64,000 bases of DNA, taken from contig CAZJQG010000004.1 of the NCBI GenBank assembly GCA_964548415.1, forward strand, positions 4,259 through 68,258, given 5' to 3'. The position numbers were made by a program, and so were the translations under genes. The notes beneath the pieces were generated by a model. That model did not search any database. It saw only the letters and a program-made list of their open reading frames with translations, and was not told the DNA's origin. Below, piece by piece: positions 34,775-54,532 of this stretch (its first letter is position 1; each line of letters begins with the position of its first letter). This stretch comes from an uncultured Dehalococcoidales bacterium. Lineage in GTDB: Bacteria; Chloroflexota; Dehalococcoidia; GIF9; UBA5629.

Positions 34775-36139
34775 TTATGGTTTATGATGGGCCTGGTACC
34801 ATTTCCAGCCGATAACTGACCATATTGCTAGCACAGCGATTATTCCGATAATGCTGCCTATAAGCCACCAATTAATACCATGTACGGCTGAGGCAACCAC
34901 TTCGAATTCACCTGTAAGGCCGGATATTTCCACTCGGTGTTTGCCCAGCTCGTCAGACGTCACGGTGAAATTAACTAACTTGTTATCCCCGGGTGCTACG
35001 GTTACCTGCGTGCTTGATTTGGCCGCGCCATCAATTTTGAGGTCTAAGTTGTAGTCGGAACTTATTTCACCGGTATTAGCTACTTTAACAGAGATGGTTA
35101 TTGCCTCGTTTGATTTAATTCGTGACGGATTAATAGTAAGGTCGCTAACGGTAAATTTAGCTGGTACCGCGGTCGGTTCTGCAATCTTGGCTAATACAGC
35201 ATATATAGAGAAGTGAGTCAGCAGACAATGTGCTTTGCCGATTTCTGCAACGCCCGGTCCAGGGTCTAACGCTAGCCAGCCCTCACTTTTATCATAGTTG
35301 GCAATGTAGCCTTCTATCGCGCCTGGAGGCAAAGAAGCCGGATCGTAATTCAAGATTAGACGGGCTGAGGGAGTAATAGCGATTGACGACGGCGCAGTAC
35401 TCTGTGCCGAGGAGTAAGCACTGAGTTCGTACACCGAGCTAATTATTTTAGTATTTTCAGGAACAGGTAATTCAGCGGCTGAGGTAGTGAATTTGATTGA
35501 ATATGGAACAACGTTGCCGGCAAGGGCTAGCTTGGTGCCTTTATCGAGTTCCAGCGAATTTTTACCTGATTTATCTTTGGCCAGACAGGCTTCACAAAGT
35601 ATGCCCTCAGTGGTCATACTGGCGACGGTAATATTGCCTTGAACATCGGCTGCCAGGCTCAGGGGGCAGCCAGCTAACGTCCCGGCTAGACCACCTAGAT
35701 CACCGCCTGCACCTCCACCGCCGCCACCGCTACATAGTGTTGTACCCTGCGGGTCATTAGATATGGCAGTCCACGTACCCATCGAATCGGTCGCCTTTAT
35801 GGCAAAGAAATAGGAAGTACACTGGTCTAAACCTATGACCAGAAGTGTTTCAGGCTGGCCTGGTGGCAGAGGATCTGGCGGATTTGCCAGTTGAGTAGCT
35901 GCTTGCCATTCGCTCTCGCTGGTAATCGGCAAAAGAGAGTAACGAATATCATATTTGGTGGCTGGCCCCCAATCTGGCGGGCTACTCGGTGGTGAAGTCC
36001 AGGTCAATGTCAGGCTTGTGTAGTTGAGATTGGTAGTGGCTAAGTCTATAATCCTGTTATTTATGATGGTTACACTGGCCTGAACTTCTGTATTATCGGC
36101 GTTAACTATACCGGGTATTATCCATAGCAACAGAGCCAA
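34775..36139 (-). CDS. Cell-surface protein: FN3-like domain, poly-Gly linker, conserved ~330-aa C-terminal module (Cys-containing domain plus CARDB-like domain plus TM anchor)
   Basis: The FN3-like block is LTLTWTSPPS...YDIRY. GGGGGGAGG is followed by CPLSL...ILCEACLAKD. The CARDB-like block is VANTGEISSDYNLDLKIDG...GKHRVEI. The C-terminus is INWWLIGSIIGIIAVLAIW plus a basic tail. The start is uncertain (TTG at 36139; the frame stays open further upstream). Confidence 0.75.
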   Translation of the reverse strand: MALLLWIIPGIVNADNTEVQASVTIINNRIIDLATTNLNYTSLTLTWTSPPSSPPDWGPATKYDIRYSLLPITSESEWQAATQLANPPDPLPPGQPETLLVIGLDQCTSYFFAIKATDSMGTWTAISNDPQGTTLCSGGGGGGAGGDLGGLAGTLAGCPLSLAADVQGNITVASMTTEGILCEACLAKDKSGKNSLELDKGTKLALAGNVVPYSIKFTTSAAELPVPENTKIISSVYELSAYSSAQSTAPSSIAITPSARLILNYDPASLPPGAIEGYIANYDKSEGWLALDPGPGVAEIGKAHCLLTHFSIYAVLAKIAEPTAVPAKFTVSDLTINPSRIKSNEAITISVKVANTGEISSDYNLDLKIDGAAKSSTQVTVAPGDNKLVNFTVTSDELGKHRVEISGLTGEFEVVASAVHGINWWLIGSIIGIIAVLAIWSVIGWKWYQAHHKP

Positions 36140-36185
36140 CAGAATAACTGTTAGCTTCAGTGTATCCGTTAATTTTAATACTCGT

Positions 36186-36902
36186 TTAATAATAGCGGCG
36201 TCGCCTCGTCAGTACTATTAACACAATAATAATAATTAAGACAACAACGGCAGCACCAATGGCTATTGGCAACCAGTTTATGGATTTCTTGGCTGGCTGT
36301 GCGCCGCCTTCACCGATGATTTTCTCCCCGGTACCTGTGCTAGCAGAGATTACCTGGACTGAGAACTCGAAATCCCTGGTCTGCTTTATGGCAGCCGTCC
36401 CGGTTTGACCGAGCCATTCCGCCGTCCCCGAAACTTTTATTTCAGCCTGTTGCCCGATTTTTTCAGTTTCAGGTACGGTGACGATAATATTAGCCACCTT
36501 AGCCAGTGCATAACCTCTGCTGGGAACAGTAATAGATGCGCTTCCCGCCGGGACGTCGGTGGCTGGCTGGGACAGCAGTTCAGACGGTTCAATGTAAAGG
36601 TTCTCGGTAACGGTGACTACCTGTCCATTGACCTCTACCTGCATCTCATGTAACGGCGGGTCAATTTTAACATCCCAATTATCCGGAGCCTGCGCTATAT
36701 TCAAAGTAACATGGGTTATGCGATTGCCGTCCACATTGTAAAAATAAATAACTCCTGTACCTGTTTTGCCCGGAATTACCTGTATTTGCTTATTGCCCTG
36801 GGCGGTAGCAAAGTTGTACTTTGCTGGTTCCTGGGCTAAGACCAGTGATGGTATGGCCAGTAACAGGGCAATGGTGAGAATTAAGGTGATTGTCTTTTTC
36901 AT
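36186..36902 (-). CDS. Cell-surface protein, NEW3/CARDB-like beta-sandwich with C-terminal TM anchor
   Basis: The signal peptide is MKKTITLILTIALLLAIPSLVLA. The block VIPGKTGTGVIYFYNVDGNRITHVTLNIAQAPDNWDVKIDP is NEW3-like. The C-terminus is INWLPIAIGAAVVVLIIIIVLIVL followed by TRRRRYY. Confidence 0.65.
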   Translation of the reverse strand: MKKTITLILTIALLLAIPSLVLAQEPAKYNFATAQGNKQIQVIPGKTGTGVIYFYNVDGNRITHVTLNIAQAPDNWDVKIDPPLHEMQVEVNGQVVTVTENLYIEPSELLSQPATDVPAGSASITVPSRGYALAKVANIIVTVPETEKIGQQAEIKVSGTAEWLGQTGTAAIKQTRDFEFSVQVISASTGTGEKIIGEGGAQPAKKSINWLPIAIGAAVVVLIIIIVLIVLTRRRRYY

Positions 36903-36929
36903 TCGCTGTTCTCCAGACTTCGTAATTAA

Positions 36930-39900
36930 TTACTGTGTCGCCTGATAATAAAAAGTACTGCTATAGTCCCCGGGGGTTTGTCCGGCAGGGATTGATATCC
37001 AGTGATAGCATTGATGAACATCGCCTGCATAGGCGGACACAGTATACCACGTGACGTAGCTGGTCTGCATAGTGCTGGCTCCGAGAGTAGTGTTGACGCT
37101 ATTATATTTGACGTTAGCTATTGATATATTTCCGGGACCGCTAAAGTTATCACCTCTAATCTGAACATTGACATCTACGTTTGTCTCCGTGCTAACGGTG
37201 AGTGTGACCGCACCCTGACTGGGTGTCTGGTCAGCGGGTTGATCGGTCGTTCCGGGGTTCAGGCTGCCAAACTTGATGCCGTCGCCACTATAGTCTGTGA
37301 CCGTGAATGAAATGTAGATATTTGACTCCCCGATAGCAAAATCGCCAAATGACGCCAATCCCGTCGCCTGCGTACTCGTAGACGTACGTGTGCCAACTGC
37401 GGGATATGCCCAGGTAGAGCCATTGAAATTGCCGACAATAAATGTACTGGTGTTGGCCCCACTATCGATATCGCCTGAATTGAAATTGAAGGTGGCGCTA
37501 TAGTTTGTGAAACCGATTCCTGAGTTTGTTAAGCTCCAGTATAAATTAACGCTCTTACTCGAATTGATTGTAGAAGATGCAATGGATGGGTGATCGCCTG
37601 GCGTGGCTTTTGCAGTTAGATTGCCGGCAGTGCCGACACTATTAAAAATTACAGTGACGGGATTATAGCCACTTGTGGTACCGATTTCGAATGTGCATGA
37701 GACGTTTGTCCCAGAAGAAACATTCTTCTGCAAGTTGCCGATGATATAGCCGCTGGTGCGTGAGACGCTGCCGCCGGTTCCAATTATGACTGTACTGCCG
37801 CCGGTGGTAATCTTGCTGCTGGTTAAATTAAGTATATTGTTGATTGTGGCGTTGTTATTCAGGTTAAGACCGTTGCTGTTATTAAGCGTAAGGTTATAAA
37901 AGGTGGTGGCGCCGGTCACCGACTGCGTGCTTGTCCCATTCAAGGTGATAGTGCTGCTATTTGCCGTGAACGTCCCACTATTATTCCAGTTTCCTGTCAG
38001 GCTCAGCGTGCTGGAACCGCCATTCAATGTGCCTGCGGTCAGCGTGACGTCGCCGTTGATGGTATGTGTTAATCCGGTACCAAGATTCAATGTCCCGCCA
38101 GAACCGTCAAGGGTTAAGGCAATTCCATTCACATTTCCGGTTAAGGTAGCCGTACCTCCGGTCTTTGTCATAGATACGATACCGGAGGTGGAGAAGCCGG
38201 CGATGCTCTGCGTTCCTGTGCCGCTGATTGTAATAGTGGAGGTGCCGGCGGTAAACGTGCCGCTATTGATAAAGTTGCCGCCGAATGTGAGGGCGTAGCT
38301 GCCGGTGTTTAATATGGCGCCGGTGTTAATAGTAAGCGGAGCGTTGATTACCTTCCCCTGATTTAGTGTAACCGCACTGCCACTCGTATTAGCAATTATT
38401 ACTCCTCCCGAACCGCTCCACGTTGCCGGAAATTCCGTTCCCGTCGTTTGAGCGCTGGTCCCCTTGTATTGCAGCGTAGCGGCCGCGCCGTATGTGGGGG
38501 TTGTTCCCGTGGTTGTGGCAGTCCCTTCAATGGAGAGAATGCCGTTAATATTTATGGTACCAATAGCCTTTTGCCCGCTGCCGGACAGTGTAAGGTTGTT
38601 ATATGTTGTCATCCATGTGGTCGGGAGCGTTTGAGCAGCGCCGTAGTACTCAACAGTACCCGTACCGGGAGTCCATGTGCCCCTCGTCCCATTGATTGAG
38701 ACTGTGGTACCGATTTTCAGAGTACCACCACTGGACATATTGATGCTACCCCGCCTATTACCATTACCCCCGACACTTAGCCATGTACCGATCGTGAGCT
38801 GTGATACGCTATTTAAAAATGATAGTGTTGAGGTGGTGTTATTGGTAGTACCCACGGTGAGGGTTGAGCATACAGCATCACTTACGTTGACGGTCACCGT
38901 ATAACCGTTGTTAATAAATACATTATCGTTCGAAGTAGGTACAGCGGCACCTCCCCAGGTGGCTGTATTGTTCCAGTTGCCACTAGCTGAGGCCGTTCTG
39001 GTAGCCGCTGGGGCGTATACCGGTGGCGTGGGGCCGGGTTCCGGTGTGGGGACTGGAGCGGGTATTATAGGCGGTGTTGCCGCCTCACCCATGGCTGTGG
39101 CTATGTTAATACGACCAAACCACTGGTTTGGTACCGGGTCAACCGCGCCTCGGATCTGGTCGAAGACATAATCATTGTTTTGTCCATTTGCCGTCAGTAG
39201 AGCTGCCAGCCCGGCTACATTGGCAGCGGCGGCAGAAGTGCCGCTTATGGTGTAATAATTACCGCCTATAAACGTAGTGTAAATACCGACTCCAGGTGCA
39301 GCCACGTTGGCGCTGCCCGTATTGCTATCAGCGGCTACATTATCGTCCTGGTCGGTGGATGCGACTCCAAGCACGTGCTCCATGCCAGCCGGATAACTGG
39401 GTGCAGTTGAACCATCGTTGCCCGTAGCGGCCACTAACACGCATCCCTTGTTCCATGCGTACTGGATGGCGTCCGCTAATGCATCCGAGTAATCGGGGCT
39501 GCTGAAGCCCATCAAAATAACATTGGCGCCGTTATCGGCTGCCCACAGCATGCCGGCCACGATATCGCTGTCCAGGCCAGTGCCATCAGGTTGAAGCACC
39601 TGGACCGAAGAGAGTGTAGTTCCAGCATAAGCTACGCCAGCGATGCCGACAGCGTTGTTGACATTGGCAGCGGCTATGCCGGCTAGCGCGGTTCCATGGC
39701 CGTTCGGGTCACAGCTGGCATCACCATCGACGAAGCTCTGTCCTGATACAATACGGCCGGCAAAATCCGGGTGACCGGAATCTATGCCTGTATCCAGCAC
39801 TGCAATCGTGGCCGAGCCGGTAAAATTCCGTATATCGTAAACTTGATCCCAGGACATCTTGGGCAGAGCCCATTGCTGCGAATACAGAGGATCATCCGGT

Positions 39901-40235
39901 GTTCCGGCCTTATGGAACTTGACGGCCTTGGATGCTCGTTCGACGTGAGGGTTATTTGCCAGCGTGGACAGTACATTGTCTGCTGCCGCCGCCGGCACGC
40001 TGATTACATGTGTGTGAAGTTGCGAAAAATGGCGTAGGGCTTTGCCATGTGAGGCCTGTATTGCTGTATCTACTGCAGAGGTATTATCAGCATCCTTGAA
40101 TTTGACGATGATTTGGACTGTATCGTCGGATGGCTGTGCCTGAGTGATGCTGGTCGAGCTCACCAGTGTGAGCGTCGCCAGCATCACCATGAGTGTCAGT
40201 CCAACAACACATCTACGCAAAAACTGCTTTCCCAT
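36930..40235 (-). CDS. Secreted subtilisin-like (S8) serine protease with I9 propeptide, long Thr/Gly/Asn-rich beta-helix-like passenger and a C-terminal domain homologous to the neighbouring 172-aa protein
   Basis: The catalytic triad blocks are AVLDTGIDSGHPDF, HGTALAGIAA and SGTSAAAANVAGLAALL. The I9-like block is IVKFKD...HVISVP. Imperfect ~20-aa TGxxxLxxxGN repeats follow. The start was taken at the Met before the signal peptide (MGKQFLRRCVVGLTLMVML). Confidence 0.85.
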   Translation of the reverse strand: MGKQFLRRCVVGLTLMVMLATLTLVSSTSITQAQPSDDTVQIIVKFKDADNTSAVDTAIQASHGKALRHFSQLHTHVISVPAAAADNVLSTLANNPHVERASKAVKFHKAGTPDDPLYSQQWALPKMSWDQVYDIRNFTGSATIAVLDTGIDSGHPDFAGRIVSGQSFVDGDASCDPNGHGTALAGIAAANVNNAVGIAGVAYAGTTLSSVQVLQPDGTGLDSDIVAGMLWAADNGANVILMGFSSPDYSDALADAIQYAWNKGCVLVAATGNDGSTAPSYPAGMEHVLGVASTDQDDNVAADSNTGSANVAAPGVGIYTTFIGGNYYTISGTSAAAANVAGLAALLTANGQNNDYVFDQIRGAVDPVPNQWFGRINIATAMGEAATPPIIPAPVPTPEPGPTPPVYAPAATRTASASGNWNNTATWGGAAVPTSNDNVFINNGYTVTVNVSDAVCSTLTVGTTNNTTSTLSFLNSVSQLTIGTWLSVGGNGNRRGSINMSSGGTLKIGTTVSINGTRGTWTPGTGTVEYYGAAQTLPTTWMTTYNNLTLSGSGQKAIGTININGILSIEGTATTTGTTPTYGAAATLQYKGTSAQTTGTEFPATWSGSGGVIIANTSGSAVTLNQGKVINAPLTINTGAILNTGSYALTFGGNFINSGTFTAGTSTITISGTGTQSIAGFSTSGIVSMTKTGGTATLTGNVNGIALTLDGSGGTLNLGTGLTHTINGDVTLTAGTLNGGSSTLSLTGNWNNSGTFTANSSTITLNGTSTQSVTGATTFYNLTLNNSNGLNLNNNATINNILNLTSSKITTGGSTVIIGTGGSVSRTSGYIIGNLQKNVSSGTNVSCTFEIGTTSGYNPVTVIFNSVGTAGNLTAKATPGDHPSIASSTINSSKSVNLYWSLTNSGIGFTNYSATFNFNSGDIDSGANTSTFIVGNFNGSTWAYPAVGTRTSTSTQATGLASFGDFAIGESNIYISFTVTDYSGDGIKFGSLNPGTTDQPADQTPSQGAVTLTVSTETNVDVNVQIRGDNFSGPGNISIANVKYNSVNTTLGASTMQTSYVTWYTVSAYAGDVHQCYHWISIPAGQTPGDYSSTFYYQATQ

Positions 40236-40310
40236 ATTGCTTCCTGGCTCCCTGCATCGCCAAGAAGTATCCATTGTCAGTGTTTTACGAGCAGGTTCTT
40301 ACTTTTTACT

Positions 40311-40829
40311 CTATAGCGTCTTGTCTATTTTGTAATCGAAATTAGTTTGGTAGGTTGCAGCCGCCTGTCCGGCCGGGATGTTAATCCAGTGCCACACACC
40401 CTGTGACCAGGCCACGCCGGGAGTTGTATCCGAGCCTATCTGAGCATAAGTCGTGTCCATGGCAGTTCCAGGAGTGACGTTATCGGTGTTCCAGGTGGCG
40501 TTGTCAAGAGCAAATGAATTGGTTCCACCATCGCTAAAGTCCCCCTCGCCTTTTAGGCCGACTTTGCAGACTGCATTGGTCTCTGCAGCCACATCGATGG
40601 TGACAGCGCCGGTACTATCACTCTGATTAATCTCGGGTACATTCGTATCACCCGGATTCAGAGTGCCGAAACCAATGGTCCCACCAGTAACGGTTACCGT
40701 AGCATTAATATATTCATTGATAGTTACCGATGCATTGACTGATTCCTCAACTGCCAGAACTGGTGCTGCCACAGTACCTACTAGGATGAGTGCACAGGCC
40801 AGGCTGATAAGTAGATTTGTTTTTTTCAA
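40311..40829 (-). CDS. Small secreted beta-sandwich (fimbrial / pilin-like or WxL-like) protein, first gene of the riboswitch-controlled operon
   Basis: The signal peptide is MKKTNLLISLACALILVGTVAAPVLA. The blocks FGTLNPGDT...GAVTIDVAAETN...WHWINIPAGQAAATYQTNFDY align with the S8 protease C-terminus (FGSLNPGTT...GAVTLTVSTETN...YHWISIPAGQTPGDYSSTFYY). It has a TTG start with GGAGG 5 nt upstream. Confidence 0.7.
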   Translation of the reverse strand: MKKTNLLISLACALILVGTVAAPVLAVEESVNASVTINEYINATVTVTGGTIGFGTLNPGDTNVPEINQSDSTGAVTIDVAAETNAVCKVGLKGEGDFSDGGTNSFALDNATWNTDNVTPGTAMDTTYAQIGSDTTPGVAWSQGVWHWINIPAGQAAATYQTNFDYKIDKTL

Positions 40830-40965
40830 TTTTGCCTCCTTTTTTATTTTGTATTTTAGTTGTCTGATAATCGCTAATTTTCTTCTAGAAAATCATATGT
40901 GCCATTTCGTATCTAAATCTGAGCCTCTAGGTATCACCTCCTGTTTGTCATATGTTCTATAAAAC

Positions 40966-41056
40966 GCAAAAACCGACCTATTTTTGGGTCGGTTTCACTA
41001 CTGGCTCGGCACCGCTCAAGTGACCAAATTACAAACGGTGCTTCATTGCCTCCCAA
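40966..41056 (-). promoter_or_regulatory. Class-II c-di-GMP riboswitch (aptamer plus intrinsic-terminator expression platform), copy 1
   Basis: The minus strand reads GGGAGGCAAUGAAGCACCGUUUGUAAUUUGGUCACUUGAGCGGUGCCGAGCCAGUAGUGAAACCGACCC-AAAAAUA-GGGUCGGUUUUUG. It contains the conserved c-di-GMP-II blocks (CAAUGA, AAUUUGGNCACUUGA, AGUAGUGNAACCGACC). Its helices covary with copy 2. Confidence 0.8.
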
Positions 41057-41995: not shown

Positions 41996-44900
41996 TTAGT
42001 AGTTAAACCGCCTCCATCTCATTAAAATCCATATGGCGAATGCCAGTATAATAACAGCAATAATGCCGCCGATTAGCCACCAGTTGAGGCTATTGGGCCC
42101 AGCTACTACAAATTCACCCTTTAGCCCGGCCACAGTCACCTGGTAGGTTCCAACGATGTCTTCGGTTGTAGTGAAACTCACCACGCTGCTTGTCCCGGCA
42201 GCAAGGGTTACTTCTTTCGTTGATTTCGTTATACCATTCACTTTTAGCTCAACGTTGTAGTTTCCAGCAGTGCTGCCCGTATTAGCTACATTTAAACCAA
42301 TGGTTACTTGCTGAGCGGGTTGTATTTGAGTCGGGTTGATAGTTAAATTGCTTACTTCAAATTTAGCTGCCGCCTCCGCAAGCTTAGCCAATAAAGTGTC
42401 GGGTACGAAATAGTCCAGAGTACCTACCGCTTGGCCGAGTTCGGCCACCGTACCTACGGAGCCCATGGCCTGCCAGCCCTGGTTTTGACTGGAGTAGTAA
42501 TCATAGGTTACCTGTGCAGTATTTTCTGGCAGCTCATTAGGGTCATAAGCTGAGGCGATAGTGAACAGCGGATAAATATTGATGGCTGACGGATCCGTGC
42601 CGTCCAATGAGGCATAAGCGTTAATATTATAGGCTTGTCCGATTGTCTGGCCACCAGTAACCGGTGGTGATGAGCTGGCGAGTGTTACTTTGATAAGTTG
42701 TGGTATCTGATTATCCACCAGGGTAAGCTTTGTTCCTTCTTTAGCTTCCCAGCTATCTTGCTTCTGCGGGTCGTAGGCCAGGCAATTTTCGCATAGCACA
42801 CCATCCGATGTCATTTTGGCGGTGGTTATTTGGCCCAGCATATTTACAGTAAGTGTTAGGGGACAACCGCCGCCTGTTGTTGTCTGCCCAAAACCAACTT
42901 CACCTCCGCCACCTCCGCCTCCACCGCCACATTGTATGACGCTAACCGTGGTTGTGGCATTATCGCTGATACAGCCGTTTGTGTTGGTAACAACCAGAGT
43001 ATAAGTGCCAGACATATTGGAGGTGGCATTAGGTATGGAGGGATTCTGCAAATTGCTGGAAAACCCGAGAGGCCCCGTCCAGCCATATGAAGCTACATTA
43101 TCTGAACCGGCCATTAGCTGTATAGTACCGCCGATGCAGACAGGTGAGTTAGTGGATGGAGCGGAGATGGGTATAGGATTTATGGTTACGTGTCCGGTGG
43201 CGGTGTCATCGGGGCAGACGCCGTTAGAGCAGGTGACGGTATAGTCGTAGGTCCCTGGAGTCGAAGGGTTAACCAGGTGATAATCTAGGGTCATAGAACA
43301 GGAGCCGGAGCAGGCGGCGCCGTTAGAGGTAAACAGGGTATCGTTAAGTGTCGTTCCCTGGCAGATAGAGAAATCGGGAGCGGTGGAAGTGCAGGGAGAA
43401 ACGACGGTTACGTGTCCGGTGGCGGTGTCATCGGGGCAGACGCCGTTAGAGCAGGTGACGGTATAGTCGTAGGTCCCTGGAGTCGAAGGGTTAACCAGGT
43501 GATAATCTAGGGTCATAGAACAGGAGCCGGAGCAGGCGGCGCCGTTAGAGGTAAACAGGGTATCGTTAAGTGTCGTTCCCTGGCAGATAGAGAAATCGGG
43601 AGCGGTGGAAGTGCAGGGAGAAACGACGGTTACGTGTCCGGTGGCGGTGTCATCGGGGCAGACGCCGTTAGAGCAGGTGACGGTATAGTCGTAGGTCCCT
43701 GGAGTCGAAGGGTTAACCAGGTGATAATCTAGGGTCATAGAACAGGAGCCGGAGCAGGCGGCGCCGTTAGAGGTAAACAGGGTATCGTTAGGTGTCGTTC
43801 CCTGGCAGATAGAGAAATCGGGAGCGGTACTTAAACAGGGAGCGACGATGGTTACATCGATGCTGTTATTACATGTGCAGCCGTTATTGGAGATAGTGAC
43901 TGCGATATGCGCTGTACCAGATGAAGCAGCATCCCAGGTGATAGAGTTGCCAGCATTACTCCCTACTATGCTACCGCTACCGGTTATAGTCCAATCATAG
44001 GTAGCGTTATCCACGGCGTTGGGTACTGAAGCCGAGTTGCTGGTGGAGTTTTCGCAGACTGCATTAGTTGTGTCGATGGTGCAGTCGGGCAGCGAGTTAA
44101 CGGTAATATAGTTTGTCTTTGTCTGGTTGTCAGAGCCACAATCATTCGTAGCGATTAAAGTGACGTAATAGCTGCCGGCCGTATCGTAGGTTATGGCTAG
44201 AGGATTCCGATCGCTCGAGAATGAAGGATTCCCGCCTTCGAAAGTCCAGCTAAAAGAGGTAGCGTTGGTGGATGTATTGGTAAAGATGACGTTATTGCCA
44301 GCGCAAATTGCAGTAGGACAGCCGGAGAAATCGGCGATAGGCCCATTGCATGTAACCTGTCCAAGCTTGGCGCAAATTGCATTAGCGTAAGCCTGACCGT
44401 TGGCGATTATCTGTACCCAGCCTGGCGGCGGATAAGCTGGCGGCGTAGCATAAGAGCCGGTTTGAGGCCAGACGATGTCAGTCCGCAGCCACTCGCTTGC
44501 CGTATCCTGTGAGGGACCTATATACTCAGCATCGATCTCATCCTGGTCAGAGGTCATGCCTAAATGACCGATGGTGTAAACTTGTGCTGCCTCCGTGCTG
44601 TCCATAGCCTCTGTACACCCATCAACGATATCGCACGAGTCACAGCCAACTGAATTATAGGGATGACCGGTGTCATTGCAACAGCGTGTGGGTATGCCAT
44701 CGGTGACTAGATTAACGACCTGTTTGATATCAGGATCAAAGCACGGTGCACCGTATAATGTATCGGCAGCCAGGTAAAAGGCGCAGGCTAGAGGGGTATA
44801 TCCGCCCCTTTTGGAGATGCCACTGATAGTATTGGCCACGCTAACGGCGTTGCTGGCCGTGATAACAGTAGGCGGTACTTCGATCACTGCCCCAATGCCT

Positions 44901-46795
44901 CCCGGTGGGAAGAGGGGCAGACCGATTTGTACCACCGTCAGCTGTATCGAGCCATCATGTATAAAACAGCCGGGATCTGCGTTCTCGATGGCTGAAGCCA
45001 GGCCGTTCTTCATATCGGTGAAATCGGTACCGGATATGCTGGCGCTACCATCCAAGATTATGGCTAGCTGGACCCGCAGAGGCACAAAGTCGGGGTCGGC
45101 GGCATCTATCAAAGTGTCGCAGTCGTTGTCGATGCCGTCGCAAACCTCCAGGGCGCCGGGATGGACATTGGGATTGGAATCGTTGCAGTCGGTGTTATCA
45201 GCAACATAGCCGACGGGCTGACTGCACGAAAACTGCTGGATACTGGGGTTGCCATATCCATCATTATCGCTGTCCCTATACCAGACTGTGGGTGAGTTAT
45301 AGGTAAAAGAACCGCTACTGGTAGCGGTGCCACCGGACGTGGTCACCGTAATTTGGCCGCTGGAGCCAGTGCCCACCACAGCCGTAATTTGGGTGGCCGT
45401 GTTAACAGTGTAACTGGCAGCATCGGTGCCGCCAAATTGAACCGCGGTGGTCCCGAGGAAATCGGTGCCATGGATTGTTACCGAAGTATCGGTGCAGCCG
45501 GATATCGGGTCAAACGAAGTAATCGTGGGTGGTGCTGGGGGAGTGTAGAAAATCTTTACCTGCACCTGGTCCAGCCATATGGAATCACCACCTCCAGTCG
45601 CATCCATCCTCACTCTAAAGCTATTGCTATTGATTATAGTCGTGGTCCATGAGCCGTATCCCCAATTGTTACTACTGCCTCCGAGCACTATCGTGGTATC
45701 ATAAGTCTGCAGACTGCCGGTATTTATAGCAGTTGTCCAGTGGGTGCCACCGTCGTAGGAGAGGGAGACGTCCCAGGTCCTTGATGAACTGGAATCTCTA
45801 TATCCCTCGATACTGACCTGAATGCCATCGATAGTAGAACCACCCGGAATAGTAAGTCCGAAACCATAGTATTGATTTATATCATTAGTGGAATCATACT
45901 CCGCTCTAAGGTTGTTTGAGGTATAAGCATAAGTCGGATTACCAACACCGCCTCCAGTGGAACTGTTAGGCTGTTTCCAGCCGTCTTCGAAACTAGCAGC
46001 TATTGTATGATTAGCGGTAACGTTGGTGAAAGTATAACTATTTGTTCGTCCTTGCGAGACGCTGTCTACTGCCACGTCAGAAACTATATAACTTGTATTT
46101 GGGGGGATGTCGAATGCCTGGTCATTTCCTTCATCGACCGATACGACACCGGAAGGTGTTATGCTACCTCCTGCTCCGGCAGTAGCGTTAATGGTATAAG
46201 TTACTGTCGGAGTGTAGTAAACCGTAATCCGAATAAAGTCTACATATATGTCAGTATTATTGCTCCGGGCTTGCGCTGCCATGTGGACACCAAATGTAGA
46301 GGCATTGATTTCAGAGCGAGTCCATGTTGTTCCCCATAGGTCGGTTGGCCCACCGTATGTTCTTATGGTTGCTGAGCCGGGCCAGTTAGGTGATGTAACG
46401 GCTTTGTTGTCACCTACCCGGGCGGTGCCGTTCTTTGTAAGTTGGACGAGGGCATCCCTGGCGCTACCGGCGCCGCAATATCTCTCAATCTCTACTTGGA
46501 TACCTGTTATGGCGTTACCAGCGGGTATGTTAAAGCTAAAGTTAGTTGCCATCAGGACATAAGAGTAATCATTGTCGTCAAAAGATGAGGCAGTTATGCT
46601 CGCATTATTCCCGTCATCGGCACTTATGTTACCCCGGTTTATCCAGTCTTCGTCGTTGTATGAACCCTCGGAATTTGTATTGACTGTTCCTGGATAGCTG
46701 ATGCCCGTATTGTCTGCCAGCGCTGTACCGGCCATTGGTAGTGTTAGTGCAAGGAGCATGATTACTCCGAGTATCAGGTATAATAGCCTTCTCAT
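41996..46795 (-). CDS. Giant (1599 aa) multidomain cell-surface adhesin
   Basis: Domains in N-to-C order:
- Signal peptide.
- Two paralogous ~150-aa N-terminal domains (motif I(T/D)GIQV(E/S)IE).
- IPT/TIG-like domain (ITSFDPISG...VTIHGTDF).
- MopE-type metal-binding motif (DNDGYG...CDGIDNDCD).
- VWA-like domain (ILDGSASISG).
- PKD-like domain (WTFEGG...YDTAGSYYVTLIATNDCG).
- Three tandem Cys-rich 74-aa repeats.
- Poly-Gly linker.
- The same C-terminal module and NWWLIG TM anchor as 34775..36139. Confidence 0.85.
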   Translation of the reverse strand: MRRLLYLILGVIMLLALTLPMAGTALADNTGISYPGTVNTNSEGSYNDEDWINRGNISADDGNNASITASSFDDNDYSYVLMATNFSFNIPAGNAITGIQVEIERYCGAGSARDALVQLTKNGTARVGDNKAVTSPNWPGSATIRTYGGPTDLWGTTWTRSEINASTFGVHMAAQARSNNTDIYVDFIRITVYYTPTVTYTINATAGAGGSITPSGVVSVDEGNDQAFDIPPNTSYIVSDVAVDSVSQGRTNSYTFTNVTANHTIAASFEDGWKQPNSSTGGGVGNPTYAYTSNNLRAEYDSTNDINQYYGFGLTIPGGSTIDGIQVSIEGYRDSSSSRTWDVSLSYDGGTHWTTAINTGSLQTYDTTIVLGGSSNNWGYGSWTTTIINSNSFRVRMDATGGGDSIWLDQVQVKIFYTPPAPPTITSFDPISGCTDTSVTIHGTDFLGTTAVQFGGTDAASYTVNTATQITAVVGTGSSGQITVTTSGGTATSSGSFTYNSPTVWYRDSDNDGYGNPSIQQFSCSQPVGYVADNTDCNDSNPNVHPGALEVCDGIDNDCDTLIDAADPDFVPLRVQLAIILDGSASISGTDFTDMKNGLASAIENADPGCFIHDGSIQLTVVQIGLPLFPPGGIGAVIEVPPTVITASNAVSVANTISGISKRGGYTPLACAFYLAADTLYGAPCFDPDIKQVVNLVTDGIPTRCCNDTGHPYNSVGCDSCDIVDGCTEAMDSTEAAQVYTIGHLGMTSDQDEIDAEYIGPSQDTASEWLRTDIVWPQTGSYATPPAYPPPGWVQIIANGQAYANAICAKLGQVTCNGPIADFSGCPTAICAGNNVIFTNTSTNATSFSWTFEGGNPSFSSDRNPLAITYDTAGSYYVTLIATNDCGSDNQTKTNYITVNSLPDCTIDTTNAVCENSTSNSASVPNAVDNATYDWTITGSGSIVGSNAGNSITWDAASSGTAHIAVTISNNGCTCNNSIDVTIVAPCLSTAPDFSICQGTTPNDTLFTSNGAACSGSCSMTLDYHLVNPSTPGTYDYTVTCSNGVCPDDTATGHVTVVSPCTSTAPDFSICQGTTLNDTLFTSNGAACSGSCSMTLDYHLVNPSTPGTYDYTVTCSNGVCPDDTATGHVTVVSPCTSTAPDFSICQGTTLNDTLFTSNGAACSGSCSMTLDYHLVNPSTPGTYDYTVTCSNGVCPDDTATGHVTINPIPISAPSTNSPVCIGGTIQLMAGSDNVASYGWTGPLGFSSNLQNPSIPNATSNMSGTYTLVVTNTNGCISDNATTTVSVIQCGGGGGGGGGEVGFGQTTTGGGCPLTLTVNMLGQITTAKMTSDGVLCENCLAYDPQKQDSWEAKEGTKLTLVDNQIPQLIKVTLASSSPPVTGGQTIGQAYNINAYASLDGTDPSAINIYPLFTIASAYDPNELPENTAQVTYDYYSSQNQGWQAMGSVGTVAELGQAVGTLDYFVPDTLLAKLAEAAAKFEVSNLTINPTQIQPAQQVTIGLNVANTGSTAGNYNVELKVNGITKSTKEVTLAAGTSSVVSFTTTEDIVGTYQVTVAGLKGEFVVAGPNSLNWWLIGGIIAVIILAFAIWILMRWRRFNY
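43184..43828. repeat. Near-perfect tandem repeat, 222-nt unit x 2.9, inside the adhesin gene
   Basis: GGTTACGTGTCCGGTGG recurs at 43184, 43406 and 43628. The units are identical apart from one or two substitutions (for example TTAAGT vs TTAGGT, giving Leu vs Pro). Confidence 0.95.
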
Positions 46796-46843
46796 TTCTC
46801 TATTACGCCTCCTATTCGCGGCAATCCTGGATGTTCGCTAAAA

Positions 46844-46936
46844 TAAAAAAACCGACCGTTAAAATGGGTCGGTTTCACTACTGGCTCAGCACAAGTCAAG
46901 TGACCAAATTATTACTCGTGCTTCATCGCCCCCCAA
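46844..46936 (-). promoter_or_regulatory. Class-II c-di-GMP riboswitch (aptamer plus terminator), copy 2, upstream of the giant adhesin
   Basis: The minus strand reads GGGGGGCGAUGAAGCACGAGUAAUAAUUUGGUCACUUGACUUGUGCUGAGCCAGUAGUGAAACCGACCC-AUUUUAAC-GGUCGGUUUUUUU. AGGAGG and the ATG at 46795 follow ~35-50 nt later. Confidence 0.8.
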
Positions 46937-47048
46937 CAAGTTCTTAAGTACGTAAATTATTTCGAGTTGGTTACCTCCATGGCAGCCTTCGACTTGATTT
47001 GAAGTTACTTAAACAACACGCAAATCTGCCAAATTTACGATAATTTAC

Positions 47049-47077
47049 ATAATCGCATAGTACCAGTTACTTGTCAA
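47049..47077 (-). promoter_or_regulatory. Sigma-70-like promoter TTGACA-17-GATTAT driving riboswitch copy 2 and the adhesin gene
   Basis: On the minus strand, TTGACA is at 47077-47072, the spacer is 17 nt and GATTAT is at 47054-47049. Confidence 0.6.
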
Positions 47078-47300
47078 GAGTTTTTTCACCCTTTTTTCAC
47101 AAAGTTTTCATGAAATCTTCACGTTTCTCTGAGGCCGCAAACTAATTATCTTCGGCCAAAGGCTTTGTAATCTTTCCCCGGCACATTTCCTCGTTTATTT
47201 AGGAATTCAGTACTAGTGAGTTGGGGGACTAAACTACGGCGAAAAACGTGACCTACGGGTCATTCGAAAGCTCAGCCAACCGGTTAAACTAGCCCTTAAC

Positions 47301-48326
47301 ATGGTAAAAACGGGGAAGTTTATTTGGTTGGCGCTCATTCTCCTGATTACGCTAGTGGTTACAGTATTAGCTCCAACCCTTGTTAGAATCTCAGGCATTT
47401 CCTTGACAGGTTCAGTCGCGGTTCTGCCATTTGAACCGGGAACCGAAATTCAAAAGCCCAGTTCGATTGTTCCGAAAGATTCTTCCGGAAAGCAGTGGGC
47501 TATAACGAAGGTAATGGCGCCACAAGCCTGGCAGGTTACTGGCGGTGAGCCGAATATCCTGATAGCTGTATTGGATACCGGAATCGATAAAGACCAGAAA
47601 GACCTCGCTGGCAAGGTGATGGCCGAAATCAATTTCACCGATAGCGATACAGTTGAAGATGTTTACGGCCATGGCACTCATATAGCGGGCATCATTGCAG
47701 CCTGGGCAAAAAATAGTGGCGGTGTTGACGGTTTGGCTCCCGATTGTCGACTGCTTAATGTGAAGGTGGCTGACGATCAGGGCAGATTTGACAGCAAAGT
47801 AGCAGCTAAAGGCGTCATCTGGGCGGTTGACCATGGTGCCAAGGTCATAAACATGAGTCTGGTTACCCTGGAGCCGTCGTCCGCCTTGGAGGCGGCAATT
47901 GACTATGCCTGGAACAAAGGGGCTGTTGTAGTCGCTGCAGCCGGCAATCTCGTTGGCGATAAGATTGTATATCCAGCATATTATTCGCGGTGCATCGCCG
48001 TGGCTGCCACTGACAGCAACGACAGTATAGCTTCCTGGTCCAGCCAGGGAGAATGGGTGGATGTAGCGGCGCCGGGTGTGGATATTTATTCTACGCTGCC
48101 CCGAGATAATTATGGCTACAAAAGCGGGACCTCAATGGCATCGGCTCATGTATCAGGAGTGGCCGGGCTATTATTTGCTCTGGAGAAAGACACTGACGGC
48201 GATGGCCTGATTAACGATGAAGTCAGGTCTGCGCTTGAGAACGGTTGTGATGGTCTTGATGCAGGTGTTGTAAAAGGGCGAATTAATGCCTATCATGCAG
48301 TGAATAGCGCGTTAACCTCCAAATAG
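47301..48326 (+). CDS. Membrane-anchored/secreted subtilisin-like (S8) serine protease (341 aa)
   Basis: The triad blocks are AVLDTGIDKDQKDL, HGTHIAGIIAA and SGTSMASAHVSGVAGLL. The N-terminus has a hydrophobic helix. Confidence 0.9.
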   Translation: MVKTGKFIWLALILLITLVVTVLAPTLVRISGISLTGSVAVLPFEPGTEIQKPSSIVPKDSSGKQWAITKVMAPQAWQVTGGEPNILIAVLDTGIDKDQKDLAGKVMAEINFTDSDTVEDVYGHGTHIAGIIAAWAKNSGGVDGLAPDCRLLNVKVADDQGRFDSKVAAKGVIWAVDHGAKVINMSLVTLEPSSALEAAIDYAWNKGAVVVAAAGNLVGDKIVYPAYYSRCIAVAATDSNDSIASWSSQGEWVDVAAPGVDIYSTLPRDNYGYKSGTSMASAHVSGVAGLLFALEKDTDGDGLINDEVRSALENGCDGLDAGVVKGRINAYHAVNSALTSK

Positions 48327-54515: not shown

Positions 54516-54532
54516 GGGGCGTCGGGATAATC

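What the first reader, a model, noticed from the sequence alone, without database searches (positions are those of the whole stretch)
34775..48326. A 13.5-kb cell-surface island whose proteins share modules in a combinatorial way
Several modules are shared between proteins of the island.
- The 454-aa protein and the 1599-aa adhesin share a ~330-aa C-terminal module. It runs from poly-Gly through CPL(S/T)L..(I/V)LCE(A/N)CLA(K/Y)D, a central domain, a CARDB-like domain (NV/VANTG...Y(N)(L/V)(D/E)LK(I/V)(D/N)G) and NWWLIG-TM.
- The SBBP protein at 896..3733 ends with the same CARDB-like-plus-TM arrangement.
- The S8 protease C-terminus is homologous to the free-standing 172-aa protein.
- Two S8 proteases flank the island.

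This looks like a dedicated envelope/adhesion toolkit built by domain shuffling. At least five of its genes are under c-di-GMP control.
Basis: partly seen in the sequence, partly recalled or inferred. Interest (0 to 1): 0.65.

Follow-up and report, generated by a model that had tools for sequence, protein, structure and literature searches.

The report
c-di-GMP-switched surface-protein locus in Dehalococcoidia
Two c-di-GMP riboswitches in an uncultured Dehalococcoidia bacterium appear to switch on five cell-surface genes built from reusable parts, chiefly a probably self-cleaving membrane-anchor cassette and a pilin-like docking domain; this is a new variant of a known kind of adhesion control, not a new kind of system.

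Summary
The 454-aa and 1599-aa proteins share a roughly 300-aa C-terminal module (39% identity, E 2e-58). The S8 protease C-terminus is homologous to the 172-aa protein (E 2e-17). The SBBP protein ends in CARDB plus a TM helix. Two c-di-GMP-II riboswitches (74.9 and 65.5 bits) precede the 1599-aa gene and the 172/S8/238/454 gene run, and each has a terminator that overlaps the aptamer, which is an ON design.

New findings:
- **Anchor cassette.** The unannotated central domain of the shared module looks like a GAIN/MAIN-type autoproteolytic beta-sandwich. H309-F310-S311 sits in the last beta-turn. H-hydrophobic-S/T is kept in 113 of the 150 best of 3,696 related clusters. The 1599-aa paralogue has lost both His and Ser.
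- **Pilin-like cassette.** The 172-aa protein has a chaperone-usher-pilin-like fold. In seven loci it sits beside a larger protein that carries the same domain without its N-terminal extension, and in five of those seven a 238-aa-type membrane protein is present too.
- **Locus, not island.** The region is a syntenic, variable locus in Dehalococcoidia, not an acquired island. Only one S8 protease flanks it; the other is internal.

Self-cleavage and fibre formation are inferred, not shown. Verdict: a real feature and a new variant of a known kind.

The parts
47049..47077 (-). Sigma-70-like promoter (TTGACA, 17 nt spacer, TG-GATTAT) upstream of riboswitch 1
   Evidence: The same hexamers and spacing recur upstream of riboswitch 2. 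This is a consensus match only.
46858..46942 (-). c-di-GMP-II riboswitch aptamer 1, in the 5' leader of the 1599-aa adhesin gene
   Evidence: RF01786, 65.5 bits against a gathering score of 53.5, E 2e-12, full-length model match. It is 85% identical to aptamer 2, and the differences include changes within the central stem.
46841..46875 (-). Intrinsic terminator of riboswitch 1. Its 5' arm AAACCGACC overlaps the 3' end of the aptamer.
   Evidence: Sequence. The fold gives -18 kcal/mol, z -4.6, followed by a U-run.
41996..46795 (-). 1599-aa multidomain adhesin: signal peptide, two copies of an unknown N-terminal domain, MopE metal-binding motif, VWA, PKD domains, three 74-aa Cys-rich repeats, Ig, poly-Gly, degenerate GAIN/MAIN-like domain, CARDB-like domain, TM anchor
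   Evidence: Pfam; hydropathy; BLASTP against the 454-aa protein.
43184..43849 (-). Three tandem 222-bp repeats (100%, 100% and 95% identity to the reference copy), encoding 74-aa Cys-rich units of the adhesin
   Evidence: One metagenome contig skips 444 nt here, which indicates copy-number variation.
42371..42889 (-). Central domain of the shared module in the 1599-aa protein (residues 1303-1475). The catalytic positions read Y1462-F1463-V1464, so the domain is predicted not to cleave.
   Evidence: A3 profile E 1.8e-66. The motif NYFVPDTLLAKL is conserved in the orthologues in L001 and L006.
42005..42367 (-). CARDB-like domain plus NWWLIG and the C-terminal TM helix of the 1599-aa protein
41690..41938 (+). 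82-aa HTH_17/MerR-type DNA-binding protein, convergent with the adhesin gene and upstream of unit 2
   Evidence: PF12728, E 4.8e-12. A similar small gene lies in the corresponding loci L001, L003 and L030.
41092..41120 (-). Sigma-70-like promoter (TTGACA, 17 nt spacer, TG-GATTAT) upstream of riboswitch 2
40978..41062 (-). c-di-GMP-II riboswitch aptamer 2, in the 5' leader of the 172/S8/238/454 gene run
   Evidence: RF01786, 74.9 bits, E 5e-15.
40959..40996 (-). Intrinsic terminator of riboswitch 2, overlapping the 3' end of the aptamer
   Evidence: Terminator scan. The fold gives -15.5 kcal/mol, z -3.9.
40311..40829 (-). 172-aa secreted pilin-like protein: signal peptide, then a conserved N-terminal extension (residues 27-39, alternating hydrophobic residues), then an Ig-like domain
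   Evidence: AF2 model pLDDT 87. The best Foldseek matches are CsuA/B, CupE, CfaB, FimA and Caf1 pilins (E 1.8e-4). The family alignment is A1.
36930..40274 (-). 1114-aa S8 subtilase: signal peptide, fervidolysin-type prodomain, catalytic domain (D/H/S present), Pro-rich linker, Gly/Thr-rich repeat region, C-terminal pilin-like domain
   Evidence: Pfam, NCBIfam, sequence.
36936..37322 (-). C-terminal pilin-like domain of the S8 protease (residues 985-1113). It is homologous to the 172-aa protein from profile position about 38 onward, so it lacks the signal peptide and N-terminal extension.
36186..36902 (-). 238-aa protein: signal peptide, beta-rich ectodomain with no family match, INW motif, C-terminal TM helix, RRRRYY tail. 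It is a conserved partner of the 172-aa family.
   Evidence: Full-length homologues follow the 172-type gene in L024, L025, L026 and L028.
34775..36190 (-). 454-aa (more likely about 471-aa) protein: signal peptide, fn3, poly-Gly, GAIN/MAIN-like domain, CARDB, TM anchor. The ORF call starts at TTG 36139; the likely true start is ATT 36190.
   Evidence: Pfam. Orthologues are 54-69% identical in Dehalococcoidia MAGs.
35174..35692 (-). Central domain of the shared module in the 454-aa protein (residues 150-322): an all-beta domain of 14 strands
   Evidence: AF2 model pLDDT 93. The A3 profile finds 3,696 representative clusters.
35207..35215 (-). H309-F310-S311, the predicted autoproteolytic site (cleavage between F310 and S311), in the turn between the last two strands of the central domain
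   Evidence: It aligns on H-L-T of the ADGRF1 GPS site.
34796..35143 (-). CARDB domain (residues 333-404), then INWWLIG and the C-terminal TM helix of the 454-aa protein
   Evidence: PF07705, 29 bits against a 22.7-bit cutoff. Foldseek matches the CARDB structures 2kl6 and 3idu.
47301..48326 (+). 341-aa membrane-anchored S8 subtilase. It is divergently transcribed, has no riboswitch and belongs to the conserved flank rather than the variable region.
   Evidence: Pfam. L003 has a 340-aa S8 protein with a closely similar sequence in the same position.
851..3733 (+). 960-aa DUF7948/SBBP beta-propeller surface protein ending in a CARDB-like domain plus TM helix. It lies outside the locus, has no central domain and no riboswitch.

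Best explanation
This is a c-di-GMP-induced cell-surface locus of an uncultured Dehalococcoidia (Chloroflexota) bacterium. It occupies a conserved chromosomal slot whose contents vary by whole cassettes.

**Regulation.** There are two transcription units. Each starts with the same promoter-like site, a c-di-GMP-II aptamer and an intrinsic terminator whose 5' arm is part of the ligand-bound aptamer fold. Binding of c-di-GMP should therefore prevent termination, which makes each an ON switch (inferred from the sequence).
- Unit 1 encodes the 1599-aa adhesin.
- Unit 2 encodes the 172-aa pilin-like protein, the 1114-aa S8 protease, the 238-aa membrane protein and the 454-aa fn3 protein.

All five proteins have Sec-type signal peptides. 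Three of them are held in the cytoplasmic membrane by a C-terminal helix. This fits a lineage whose cultured members lack a peptidoglycan wall and sortase anchoring (established for Dehalococcoides, assumed here).

**Shared module 1: a display-and-anchor cassette.** It consists of a poly-Gly linker, a GAIN/MAIN-type beta-sandwich, a CARDB spacer and a TM helix.
- In the 454-aa protein the sandwich keeps H-F-S in its last beta-turn. I infer that it cleaves itself between F310 and S311. The fn3 head would then stay attached non-covalently and could be shed under force, as was shown for MAIN domains in Firmicutes.
- In the 1599-aa adhesin the His and Ser are replaced by Tyr and Val, so that adhesin should stay covalently tethered.

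**Shared module 2: a pilin-like Ig domain.**
- The free 172-aa subunit carries a conserved N-terminal extension.
- The S8 protease carries the same domain at its C-terminus without that extension.
- I infer that the subunits associate by strand complementation into a short fibre or stalk that carries the protease at its end.
- The 238-aa protein may act as the membrane base. This last step is the weakest.

The confidence of 0.65 is for the overall picture. My estimates for the parts are: riboswitch identity about 0.95, ON logic about 0.8, GAIN/MAIN-type domain about 0.7, actual self-cleavage about 0.55, and donor-strand fibre with terminal cargo about 0.35.
For: **Riboswitches and ON design.**

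**Operon layout and export signals.**

**Organism and synteny.**
- Orthologues and the named hits are from Dehalococcoidia MAGs.
- The slot between proB and S8-341/CCA-adding enzyme is occupied in L001 and L003.
- Riboswitches lie upstream, on the same strand, in L001 (3), L003 (2), L006 (3), L007, L009, L011 and L014.

**Central domain.**
- The model has pLDDT 93 and 14 strands, with HFS between the last two strands.
- The profile finds 3,696 clusters.
- H-[FLYVW]-[ST] is kept in 113 of the 150 best representatives, with Ser and Thr interchangeable.
- The weak Pfam hits that recur in more than one member are ZU5, GPS and Peptidase_S68, apart from one unrelated family, Pcf11_C.
- The best PDB sequence hit is the GPS region of adhesion GPCR F1, with HFT aligned on HLT (E 0.17).
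- The architecture of signal peptide, variable head, this domain and an anchor matches the published definition of MAIN domains, in which HFS is cleaved between F and S and S-to-A abolishes cleavage (bioRxiv 10.64898/2026.05.12.724683).
- A degenerate lineage is conserved across genomes.

**Pilin-like module.**
- The extension is conserved in free subunits and absent from every cargo copy.
- The subunit is paired with a cargo protein in the window and in L024, L025, L026, L027, L028/L029 and L030.
- A 238-type protein is present in the window, L024, L025, L026 and L028/L029.
- Chaperone-free donor-strand fibres are known in monoderm bacteria and archaea (PMC9674648, PMC9245690).
Against: - No experiment and no transcript data are available.
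- The fold link to GAIN_B could not be tested directly, because the structure search was swamped by CARDB matches.
- Every sequence link to GPS or ZU5 is below significance on its own.
- No sequence comparison with a proven MAIN domain was possible.
- About a quarter of the family lacks the motif, so the domain also works without cleavage.
- The pilin resemblance is moderate (TM 0.45-0.60). No Pfam or NCBIfam fimbrial, SCPU or TasA model matches, and no multimer model was made.
- Co-transcription of the four unit-2 genes is inferred from spacing only.
- No terminator was predicted between the 454-aa gene and proB.
- No GGDEF motif was found among window ORFs of 150 aa or more, so the source of c-di-GMP was not seen here.
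Confidence: 0.65

Rival explanations
1. The central domain is only a structural stalk. The conserved HFS is a folding determinant of the last beta-hairpin and no self-cleavage occurs. In that case the module is simply a spacer plus membrane anchor that lifts varied heads above the cell surface.
For: 37 of the 150 best representatives, including the whole 1599-type lineage, lack the motif yet keep the domain. All links to GPS and ZU5 are sub-threshold. The fold comparison was not obtained.
Against: His and the hydroxyl residue are kept together in sequences that are only 19-35% identical overall, and Ser and Thr are interchangeable. That is the pattern expected of a nucleophile and its general base. 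The motif has the same position (last beta-turn, just before the anchor) and the same flanking F-A-V-L residues as experimentally cleaved MAIN and GAIN sites.
Confidence: 0.25
2. The 172-aa protein is not a fibre subunit. It and the S8 C-terminal domain are alternative ligands for one receptor, for example the 238-aa membrane protein or a surface-layer component. In that case the free protein would compete with the protease, or act as a co-factor for docking it.
For: The three genes co-occur in several genomes. No chaperone, usher, SipW-type peptidase or TasA-family match is present. The pilin similarity is moderate.
Against: A strongly conserved N-terminal extension with alternating hydrophobic residues is present only in the free subunits. 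It is predicted with low confidence in the monomer model. This is typical of a donor strand and has no obvious role in a simple competitor.
Confidence: 0.3
3. The region is a horizontally acquired adhesion island, as its title in the finding suggests.
For: Gene content between the conserved flanks differs between related genomes. The 172/cargo/238 cassette also occurs in unrelated genomic contexts without riboswitches.
Against: GC content of 0.46-0.54 is like the rest of the window. There are no tRNA genes and no flanking direct repeats. No integrase or other mobility gene was seen among the locus genes scanned. The slot, its riboswitches, the HTH_17 gene and the 454-aa orthologue are conserved in relatives. 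All homologues found are from the same phylum, apart from one MAG labelled delta proteobacterium.
Confidence: 0.08
4. The riboswitches are OFF switches, or no longer respond to c-di-GMP, and the locus is expressed constitutively as ordinary envelope maintenance.
For: No ligand-binding or expression data exist. Two related leaders, in L006 and L030, are the c-di-GMP-II-GAG variant. I do not know its ligand.
Against: Both window aptamers match the full RF01786 model well above threshold. In both, the terminator 5' arm is made of aptamer nucleotides, which gives ligand-dependent anti-termination. The characterised class II riboswitches of C. difficile induce adhesins and pili at high c-di-GMP (PMC11477304).
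Confidence: 0.1

Closest known systems
MAIN (microbial GAIN-like) autoproteolytic domains, prototype B. subtilis YfkN (Brogan and Rudner, bioRxiv 10.64898/2026.05.12.724683), and the eukaryotic GAIN/GPS and ZU5 domains
   Same: - The order of parts matches: signal peptide, varied adhesion or enzyme heads, a beta-sandwich of about 170 aa, then a surface anchor.
- H-hydrophobic-S/T sits in the beta-turn before the last strand and is followed by F-A-V-L.
- fn3, PKD, CARDB and S8 domains are among the partner domains listed for MAIN proteins.
   Different: - Anchoring here is by CARDB plus a C-terminal TM helix, not by sortase, SLH or wall-binding domains.
- The host is Dehalococcoidia, which does not appear in the parts of the paper's tables held here.
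- A conserved Cys trio (CPL..LCExC) is specific to this clade.
- A naturally degenerate paralogue (Y-F-V) sits in the same locus.
- Expression is under c-di-GMP riboswitches.
- Homology to YfkN itself was not tested.
c-di-GMP-II riboswitch regulon of Clostridioides difficile (pilA1 pilus operon, adhesins CD2831 and CD3246, with the protease PPEP-1/ZmpI under a class I riboswitch)
   Same: - Class II aptamers with transcriptional ON platforms sit in front of adhesin and pilus genes.
- A secreted protease belongs to the same regulatory circuit (PMC11477304).
   Different: - Here the protease is co-induced with the adhesins rather than reciprocally regulated.
- It is a subtilase with a pilin-like docking domain.
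- The adhesins are TM-anchored rather than sortase substrates.
- Any release step would be built into the adhesin anchor rather than supplied by the protease.
Donor-strand pili: chaperone-usher pilins with two-domain tip adhesins (FimH, CsuE), and chaperone-free fibres (TasA/TapA, archaeal AbpA, threads)
   Same: - The subunit is a small secreted Ig-like protein with an N-terminal extension.
- A larger protein carries the same domain at its C-terminus without the extension, as tip adhesins do.
- An accessory membrane-associated protein is encoded alongside, loosely like TapA or AbpB (PMC9245690, PMC10151520).
   Different: - There is no chaperone, usher or SipW.
- No sequence-family membership was found.
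- The cargo can be an enzyme (S8 protease).
- Polymerisation has not been shown.
LapA/LapG-type c-di-GMP control of adhesin retention (own knowledge, not checked here)
   Same: Both link c-di-GMP level to an adhesin whose retention at the cell surface depends on a proteolytic event.
   Different: The parts are entirely different: a riboswitch rather than the LapD receptor, self-cleavage rather than a periplasmic cysteine protease, and a monoderm envelope.

Membership tests
c-di-GMP-II riboswitch (Rfam RF01786) | Covariance-model score at or above the curated gathering score, over the full model | tested here: met
   74.9 and 65.5 bits against 53.5, model positions 1-84 of 84.
c-di-GMP-II riboswitch (Rfam RF01786) | Located in the 5' leader, on the same strand as the controlled gene, with an expression platform | tested here: met
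   The aptamers end 62 nt and 148 nt before the start codons. Terminators overlap the 3' end of each aptamer.
c-di-GMP-II riboswitch (Rfam RF01786) | Binds c-di-GMP and changes transcription | not testable with these tools
   This needs in-line probing and transcription assays.
GAIN/MAIN-type autoproteolytic domain | H-hydrophobic-S/T motif in the beta-turn before the last strand | tested here: met
   In the 454-aa protein, H309-F310-S311 lies between model strands 153-158 and 163-169. The motif is present in 113 of 150 family representatives.
GAIN/MAIN-type autoproteolytic domain | The same motif in the 1599-aa paralogue | tested here: not met
   The paralogue reads Y1462-F1463-V1464. The same loss is seen in the orthologues in L001 and L006. 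It is therefore a homologous but probably non-cleaving copy.
GAIN/MAIN-type autoproteolytic domain | GAIN_B-like beta-sandwich fold | tested here: inconclusive
   The model is all-beta with 14 strands, but the Foldseek list was filled by CARDB matches. Sub-threshold sequence hits go to ZU5, GPS and Peptidase_S68 and to the ADGRF1 GPS region (E 0.17).
GAIN/MAIN-type autoproteolytic domain | Architecture: signal peptide, variable ectodomain, the domain, then a surface anchor | tested here: met
GAIN/MAIN-type autoproteolytic domain | Self-cleavage with the fragments remaining associated | not testable with these tools
   This needs protein expression.
GAIN/MAIN-type autoproteolytic domain | Sequence relationship to the YfkN-seeded family | not tested
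   No YfkN sequence was obtainable. A profile search meant to reach named Firmicutes proteins returned only 4 hits.
CARDB (PF07705) | Pfam score above the gathering cutoff | tested here: met
   The 454-aa protein scores 29 bits against 22.7. The 1599-aa and SBBP copies are linked only through BLASTP to it. Foldseek matches the CARDB structures 2kl6 and 3idu.
Donor-strand pilins (chaperone-usher or TasA-like) | Pilin-type Ig-like fold | tested here: inconclusive
   The top Foldseek hits are almost all chaperone-usher pilins (E 1.8e-4 to 5e-2), but TM is only 0.45-0.60.
Donor-strand pilins (chaperone-usher or TasA-like) | N-terminal extension on polymerising subunits, absent from the terminal two-domain protein | tested here: met
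   The conserved TASVTVNE-type extension is found only in free subunits. Every cargo copy starts at profile position 27-40.
Donor-strand pilins (chaperone-usher or TasA-like) | Chaperone and usher genes, or SipW/TapA, or sequence membership of the Fimbrial, SCPU or Peptidase_M73 families | tested here: not met
   No such Pfam or NCBIfam matches were found in the locus. It is therefore not filed as a member, only as working in a similar way.
Donor-strand pilins (chaperone-usher or TasA-like) | Forms filaments | not testable with these tools
   No multimer prediction or experiment was available.
Peptidase S8 (subtilase) | Pfam match and an Asp/His/Ser triad | tested here: met
   PF00082 at E 8e-33 and 7.5e-51. 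DTG, HGT and GTS motifs are present in both sequences.
Horizontally acquired genomic island | Atypical composition, a tRNA or repeat boundary, mobility genes | tested here: not met
   The slot is syntenic in relatives.

The most novel reading that the evidence does not exclude
The 172-aa subunit, a cargo protein carrying a C-terminal copy of its domain, and the 238-aa membrane protein together form a previously undescribed chaperone-free donor-strand fibre system of monoderm Chloroflexota. The fibre would display interchangeable cargo at its end: here an active subtilase, elsewhere beta-helix or unknown heads. In this genome it is wired to c-di-GMP together with a cleavable and a non-cleavable GAIN-like anchored protein. 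The cell would then switch on attachment, a force-releasable surface protein and a tethered protease as one programme.
Probability: 0.25. Interest if true: 0.75.

Novelty: new variant of a known kind. Interest (0 to 1): 0.55.

Why it matters
- **Biology of the group.** Dehalococcoidia are abundant in sediments and aquifers, are hard to culture and have an unusual envelope. How they attach to surfaces is essentially unknown. This locus gives a concrete, testable attachment programme with a defined signal, c-di-GMP.
- **Reach of GAIN-like domains.** It would extend the newly described microbial GAIN-like self-cleaving domains to a wall-less lineage with a different anchor (CARDB plus TM helix).
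- **A natural control pair.** The locus holds a catalytic copy and a degenerate copy of the domain side by side, which suits tests of what cleavage is for.
- **An unnamed domain family.** The central domain defines a large family (3,696 clusters at 50% identity) with no Pfam model in the copy searched, so many 'hypothetical' surface proteins could be annotated.
- **A possible display principle.** The recurring pairing of a subunit with a cargo protein suggests a general way of displaying enzymes on the cell surface.

Tried and rejected
- **Structure search of the module model against PDB.** The top 50 hits were all CARDB-type or other Ig-like matches, so it said nothing about the central domain.
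- **PDB sequence searches.** The A3 profile, the A1 profile and the 238-aa protein gave nothing useful. The A5 profile gave only the sub-threshold ADGRF1 GPS hit.
- **Third homologue search with the broad profile A5.** It was meant to reach named Firmicutes MAIN proteins but returned only 4 hits, so it gave no taxonomic or naming information.
- **Cluster look-up of 10 divergent representatives.** No organism names were returned.
- **Link between the 172-aa family and the 340-aa family of sister loci.** jackhmmer found none. hhalign gave E 0.0033 but only 9.7% probability, so this stays a possibility.
- **RNA-seq runs.** None were listed, so operon structure and read-through could not be checked.
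- **Sensitive Rfam scan of 34500-47400.** It found no further RNA element, and no group I intron of the kind sometimes coupled to class II riboswitches.
- **GGDEF motif scan of window ORFs.** It found none.
- **PGF-pre-PGF hypothesis for the central domain.** I rejected it because NCBIfam found nothing.
- **SipW hypothesis for the 180-aa proteins of L024-L026.** I rejected it because there is no peptidase match and only a faint F5/8-type-C hit.

Full report
**1. What is there**

On the minus strand between 34775 and 46942 lie five genes. In transcription order they encode:
- a 1599-aa multidomain protein (46795-41996);
- a 172-aa protein (40829-40311);
- a 1114-aa S8 subtilase (40274-36930);
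- a 238-aa protein (36902-36186);
- a 454-aa protein (36139-34775).

A small HTH_17 gene (41690-41938, plus strand) sits between the first two. A 341-aa S8 subtilase (47301-48326, plus strand) is divergent from the first gene.

All five proteins have N-terminal hydrophobic signal sequences. The 1599-, 238- and 454-aa proteins end in a hydrophobic helix followed by basic residues.

**2.

- The 454-aa and 1599-aa proteins align over 294 residues at 39% identity (E 2e-58).
- The 172-aa protein aligns with residues 985-1111 of the S8 protease at 37% identity (E 2e-17).
- The SBBP protein at 851-3733 shares the CARDB-like segment (E 7e-11) followed by a TM helix, but not the central domain.
- The catalytic domains of the two subtilases are 42% identical.

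These are genuine homologies, not low-complexity matches. One correction is needed: one S8 gene is inside the gene run and only the 341-aa gene flanks it.

**3. Regulation**

Rfam finds exactly two elements in the 64-kb window. Both are c-di-GMP-II aptamers, at 46858-46942 and 40978-41062 on the minus strand, scoring 65.5 and 74.9 bits against a gathering score of 53.5. A more permissive scan adds nothing.

Each aptamer is preceded by the same promoter-like site, TTGACA-17-TGnGATTAT. Each is followed by a 10-bp GC-rich hairpin and a U-run, at -18 and -15.5 kcal/mol, with no shuffle folding as well.

The 5' arm of each hairpin, AAACCGACC, consists of the conserved AACCG and P1 3'-strand nucleotides of the aptamer. 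A ligand-bound aptamer and the terminator are therefore mutually exclusive. This is the layout of a transcriptional ON switch, as in the class II riboswitches of C. difficile that induce pili and adhesins (PMC11477304).

The unit-2 genes are separated by 36 nt and 27 nt, then by a gap of at most 46 nt. No terminator-like site was predicted between them on that strand. 'Five genes under c-di-GMP control' is therefore reasonable but rests on inference, and no RNA data were found.

**4. Organism and locus**

The 454-aa protein has about 55 full-length homologues at 51-69% identity. The named ones are from Dehalococcoidia MAGs. A scan of one genome per species returned 19 loci. Eighteen are Chloroflexota or Dehalococcoidia MAGs and one is labelled delta proteobacterium. 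The DNA itself occurs, identical, in freshwater and sediment metagenomes.

In related contigs the same slot is filled by a similar but not identical gene set, and the 454-aa orthologue is always last. The slot lies between proB/proA/RNase PH on one side and S8-341/CCA-adding enzyme/SecDF on the other.

c-di-GMP-II aptamers precede these genes in L001 (three), L003 (two), L006 (three, one of the GAG variant), L007, L009, L011 and L014.

GC content is unremarkable. There is no tRNA gene and no boundary repeat. This is a conserved, internally variable surface-protein locus, not an acquired island.

**5. Shared module 1**

Pfam annotates only fn3 and CARDB in the 454-aa protein, and nothing for residues 150-325. 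An AlphaFold model of residues 150-420 is confident (pLDDT 93). It shows an all-beta domain of 14 strands followed by the CARDB sandwich.

A profile of the central domain alone finds 3,696 representative clusters at E up to 1e-3, and 1,714 at 1e-10. In 34 sampled members, 23 also carry CARDB, and the N-terminal parts cover 87 Pfam families. The cassette is an old and widespread anchor rather than a local invention.

The key feature is the motif H309-F310-S311, in the turn between the last two strands:
- His and Phe are invariant or nearly so, even in members that are 19-35% identical to the query.
- Among the 150 best representatives, 113 have H-[FLYVW]-[ST] at this position (78 HFT, 24 HFS), followed by xFAVLA.
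- The weak Pfam hits that recur in more than one member are ZU5, GPS and Peptidase_S68, apart from one unrelated family, Pcf11_C.
- The best match in the whole PDB sequence set is the GPS region of adhesion GPCR F1. There HFT aligns on the cleaved H-L-T, and an upstream Trp also aligns (E 0.17).

A 2026 preprint defines microbial GAIN-like 'MAIN' domains by exactly these features (bioRxiv 10.64898/2026.05.12.724683):
- They occur in secreted proteins with varied adhesion or enzyme heads, placed just before the anchor.
- An HFS motif is cleaved between F and S.
- S-to-A abolishes cleavage and S-to-T restores it.
- The fragments stay associated until they are pulled apart.
- A structural domain parser labels the domains GPS or ZU5.

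I therefore read the central domain as a member, or a close relative, of that family. I predict self-cleavage at F310/S311.

Not shown:
- the fold superposition, because the Foldseek output was filled by CARDB hits;
- any direct sequence link to YfkN;
- cleavage itself.

**6. A degenerate paralogue**

In the 1599-aa adhesin the same positions read Y-F-V. The orthologous adhesins in L001 and L006 have the same NYFVPDTLLAKL sequence. The 454-type proteins, and a third type of about 1150 aa, keep HFS.

So the two copies in the window are ancient paralogues. One is predicted to be cleavable and the other permanently covalent.

**7. Shared module 2**

The 172-aa family is small: 14 clusters, and the one named member is from Chloroflexota. 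Its model (pLDDT 87) is most similar to chaperone-usher pilins: CsuA/B, CupE, CfaB, FimA and Caf1. The best E-value is 1.8e-4 and TM is 0.45-0.60.

After the signal peptide comes a strongly conserved stretch, consensus TASVTVNEYIS, with hydrophobic residues at alternate positions. The monomer model gives it low confidence.

Wherever a family member could be placed on a contig, a larger neighbour carries the same domain at its extreme C-terminus. That copy begins at profile position 27-40, so it lacks the signal peptide and the extension. The neighbours are:
- the S8 protease here and in L030;
- proteins of 895 and 887 aa in L024 and L025;
- a 534-aa protein in L027;
- a 367-aa protein in L028/L029;
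- a 146-aa fragment in L026.

A full-length homologue of the 238-aa membrane protein follows in L024, L025, L026 and L028/L029.

This is the arrangement of a polymerising subunit plus a two-domain terminal protein, as in FimA with FimH. Chaperone-free donor-strand fibres are established in monoderm bacteria and archaea (PMC9674648, PMC9245690, PMC10151520). I take this as the most likely mechanism, but it is an inference. No chaperone, usher or TasA-family signature is present, and no multimer model could be made.

Sister loci carry a different pair in the same slot: a 340-aa free protein and a 911-1219-aa adhesin whose last 330 residues match it. The pairing principle is conserved while the cassette differs. 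Outside the window and L030, the 172-type cassette has no riboswitch.

**8. Synthesis**

High c-di-GMP should switch on four things:
- a permanently tethered multidomain adhesin (VWA, PKD, Cys-rich repeats);
- a small fn3 protein on a probably self-cleaving, force-releasable anchor;
- a subtilase that docks through a pilin-like domain;
- that domain's free subunit and membrane partner.

Shown: the homologies, the riboswitches and their terminators, the synteny, the motif conservation and the gene pairing.

Inferred: ON regulation, the operon structure, self-cleavage, fibre formation and the envelope context.

**9. Verdict**

I score it as a new variant of a known kind with interest 0.55. The most novel surviving reading is a new donor-strand cargo-display fibre, which I put at about 0.25 probability.

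Noticed in passing
window 36139-36190 (-): The ORF call for the 454-aa gene starts at TTG 36139, which leaves a truncated signal peptide (MALLLWIIPGIVNA). The frame is open further upstream. It reads I-K-R-V-L-K-L... from ATT 36190, matching the MKRV/MNK N-termini of homologues. That ATT shares its last base, T36188, with the TAA stop of the 238-aa gene (ATTAA). The gene may use a non-canonical AUU start with translational coupling, or its ATG start may be mutated.
   Followed up: partly
window 43184-43849: Three 222-bp tandem repeats (100%, 100% and 95% identity to the reference copy) encode 74-aa Cys-rich units of the adhesin. One metagenome contig (run X2) joins 43183 to 43628 and so skips two units. 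Repeat number therefore varies in natural populations.
   Followed up: partly
L006 9174-9258; L030 1394-1478: Two related leaders score as the c-di-GMP-II-GAG variant (RF03169) rather than RF01786. One of them lies in front of the closest 172-aa/S8 pair. I did not look into its ligand.
   Followed up: no
window 40986-41019 and 46865-46907: Metagenome contigs from the same samples match only the aptamer cores and then diverge (loose ends). The communities therefore hold more c-di-GMP-II leaders of this type, either elsewhere in this genome or in relatives.
   Followed up: no
window 41690-41938 (+); L001 2973-3200; L003 3634-3894; L030 465-722: A small HTH_17/MerR-type gene, with a Gly/Asn-rich tail in the window and L003 copies whose sequences were read, lies beside a riboswitch-controlled unit in each of these loci, on the opposite strand. 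It is a candidate second regulator of the locus.
   Followed up: partly
window 41121-41689: About 570 nt between the HTH_17 start and the unit-2 promoter contain no convincing ORF and no Rfam match.
   Followed up: partly
window 8585-12966 (-): Three consecutive proteins (389, 535 and 457 aa) each end in an FHA domain.
   Followed up: no
window 54491-57983 (+): A NurA nuclease gene and a HerA (DUF87/HAS-barrel) helicase gene lie in the same stretch, separated by a 210-aa ORF (55726-56358). This pair is better known from archaea.
   Followed up: no
L024 1974-3947 and 9017-10120; L025 1256-4592 and 9310-13640; L026 184-2841: In other Chloroflexota the 172/238 cassette sits among secreted proteins with prenyltransferase or squalene-cyclase-like repeats (recurring AAGEDP motif). 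In L025 it is followed by DUF4430 plus a CbiQ/ECF transporter set. A 694-aa ORF in L025 ends in another central-domain-like segment with HLS and a TM helix.
   Followed up: no
window 41996-46795, residues 30-420 of the 1599-aa protein: Two copies of an unannotated domain of about 190 aa, each ending in ...VYYTP or ...IFYTP, open the adhesin. By eye, a similar domain opens the 911-aa adhesin of L003.
   Followed up: no
L020 8026-8104 (-): A group II intron domain match lies close to a distant central-domain gene in a complete Dehalococcoidia MAG chromosome.
   Followed up: no
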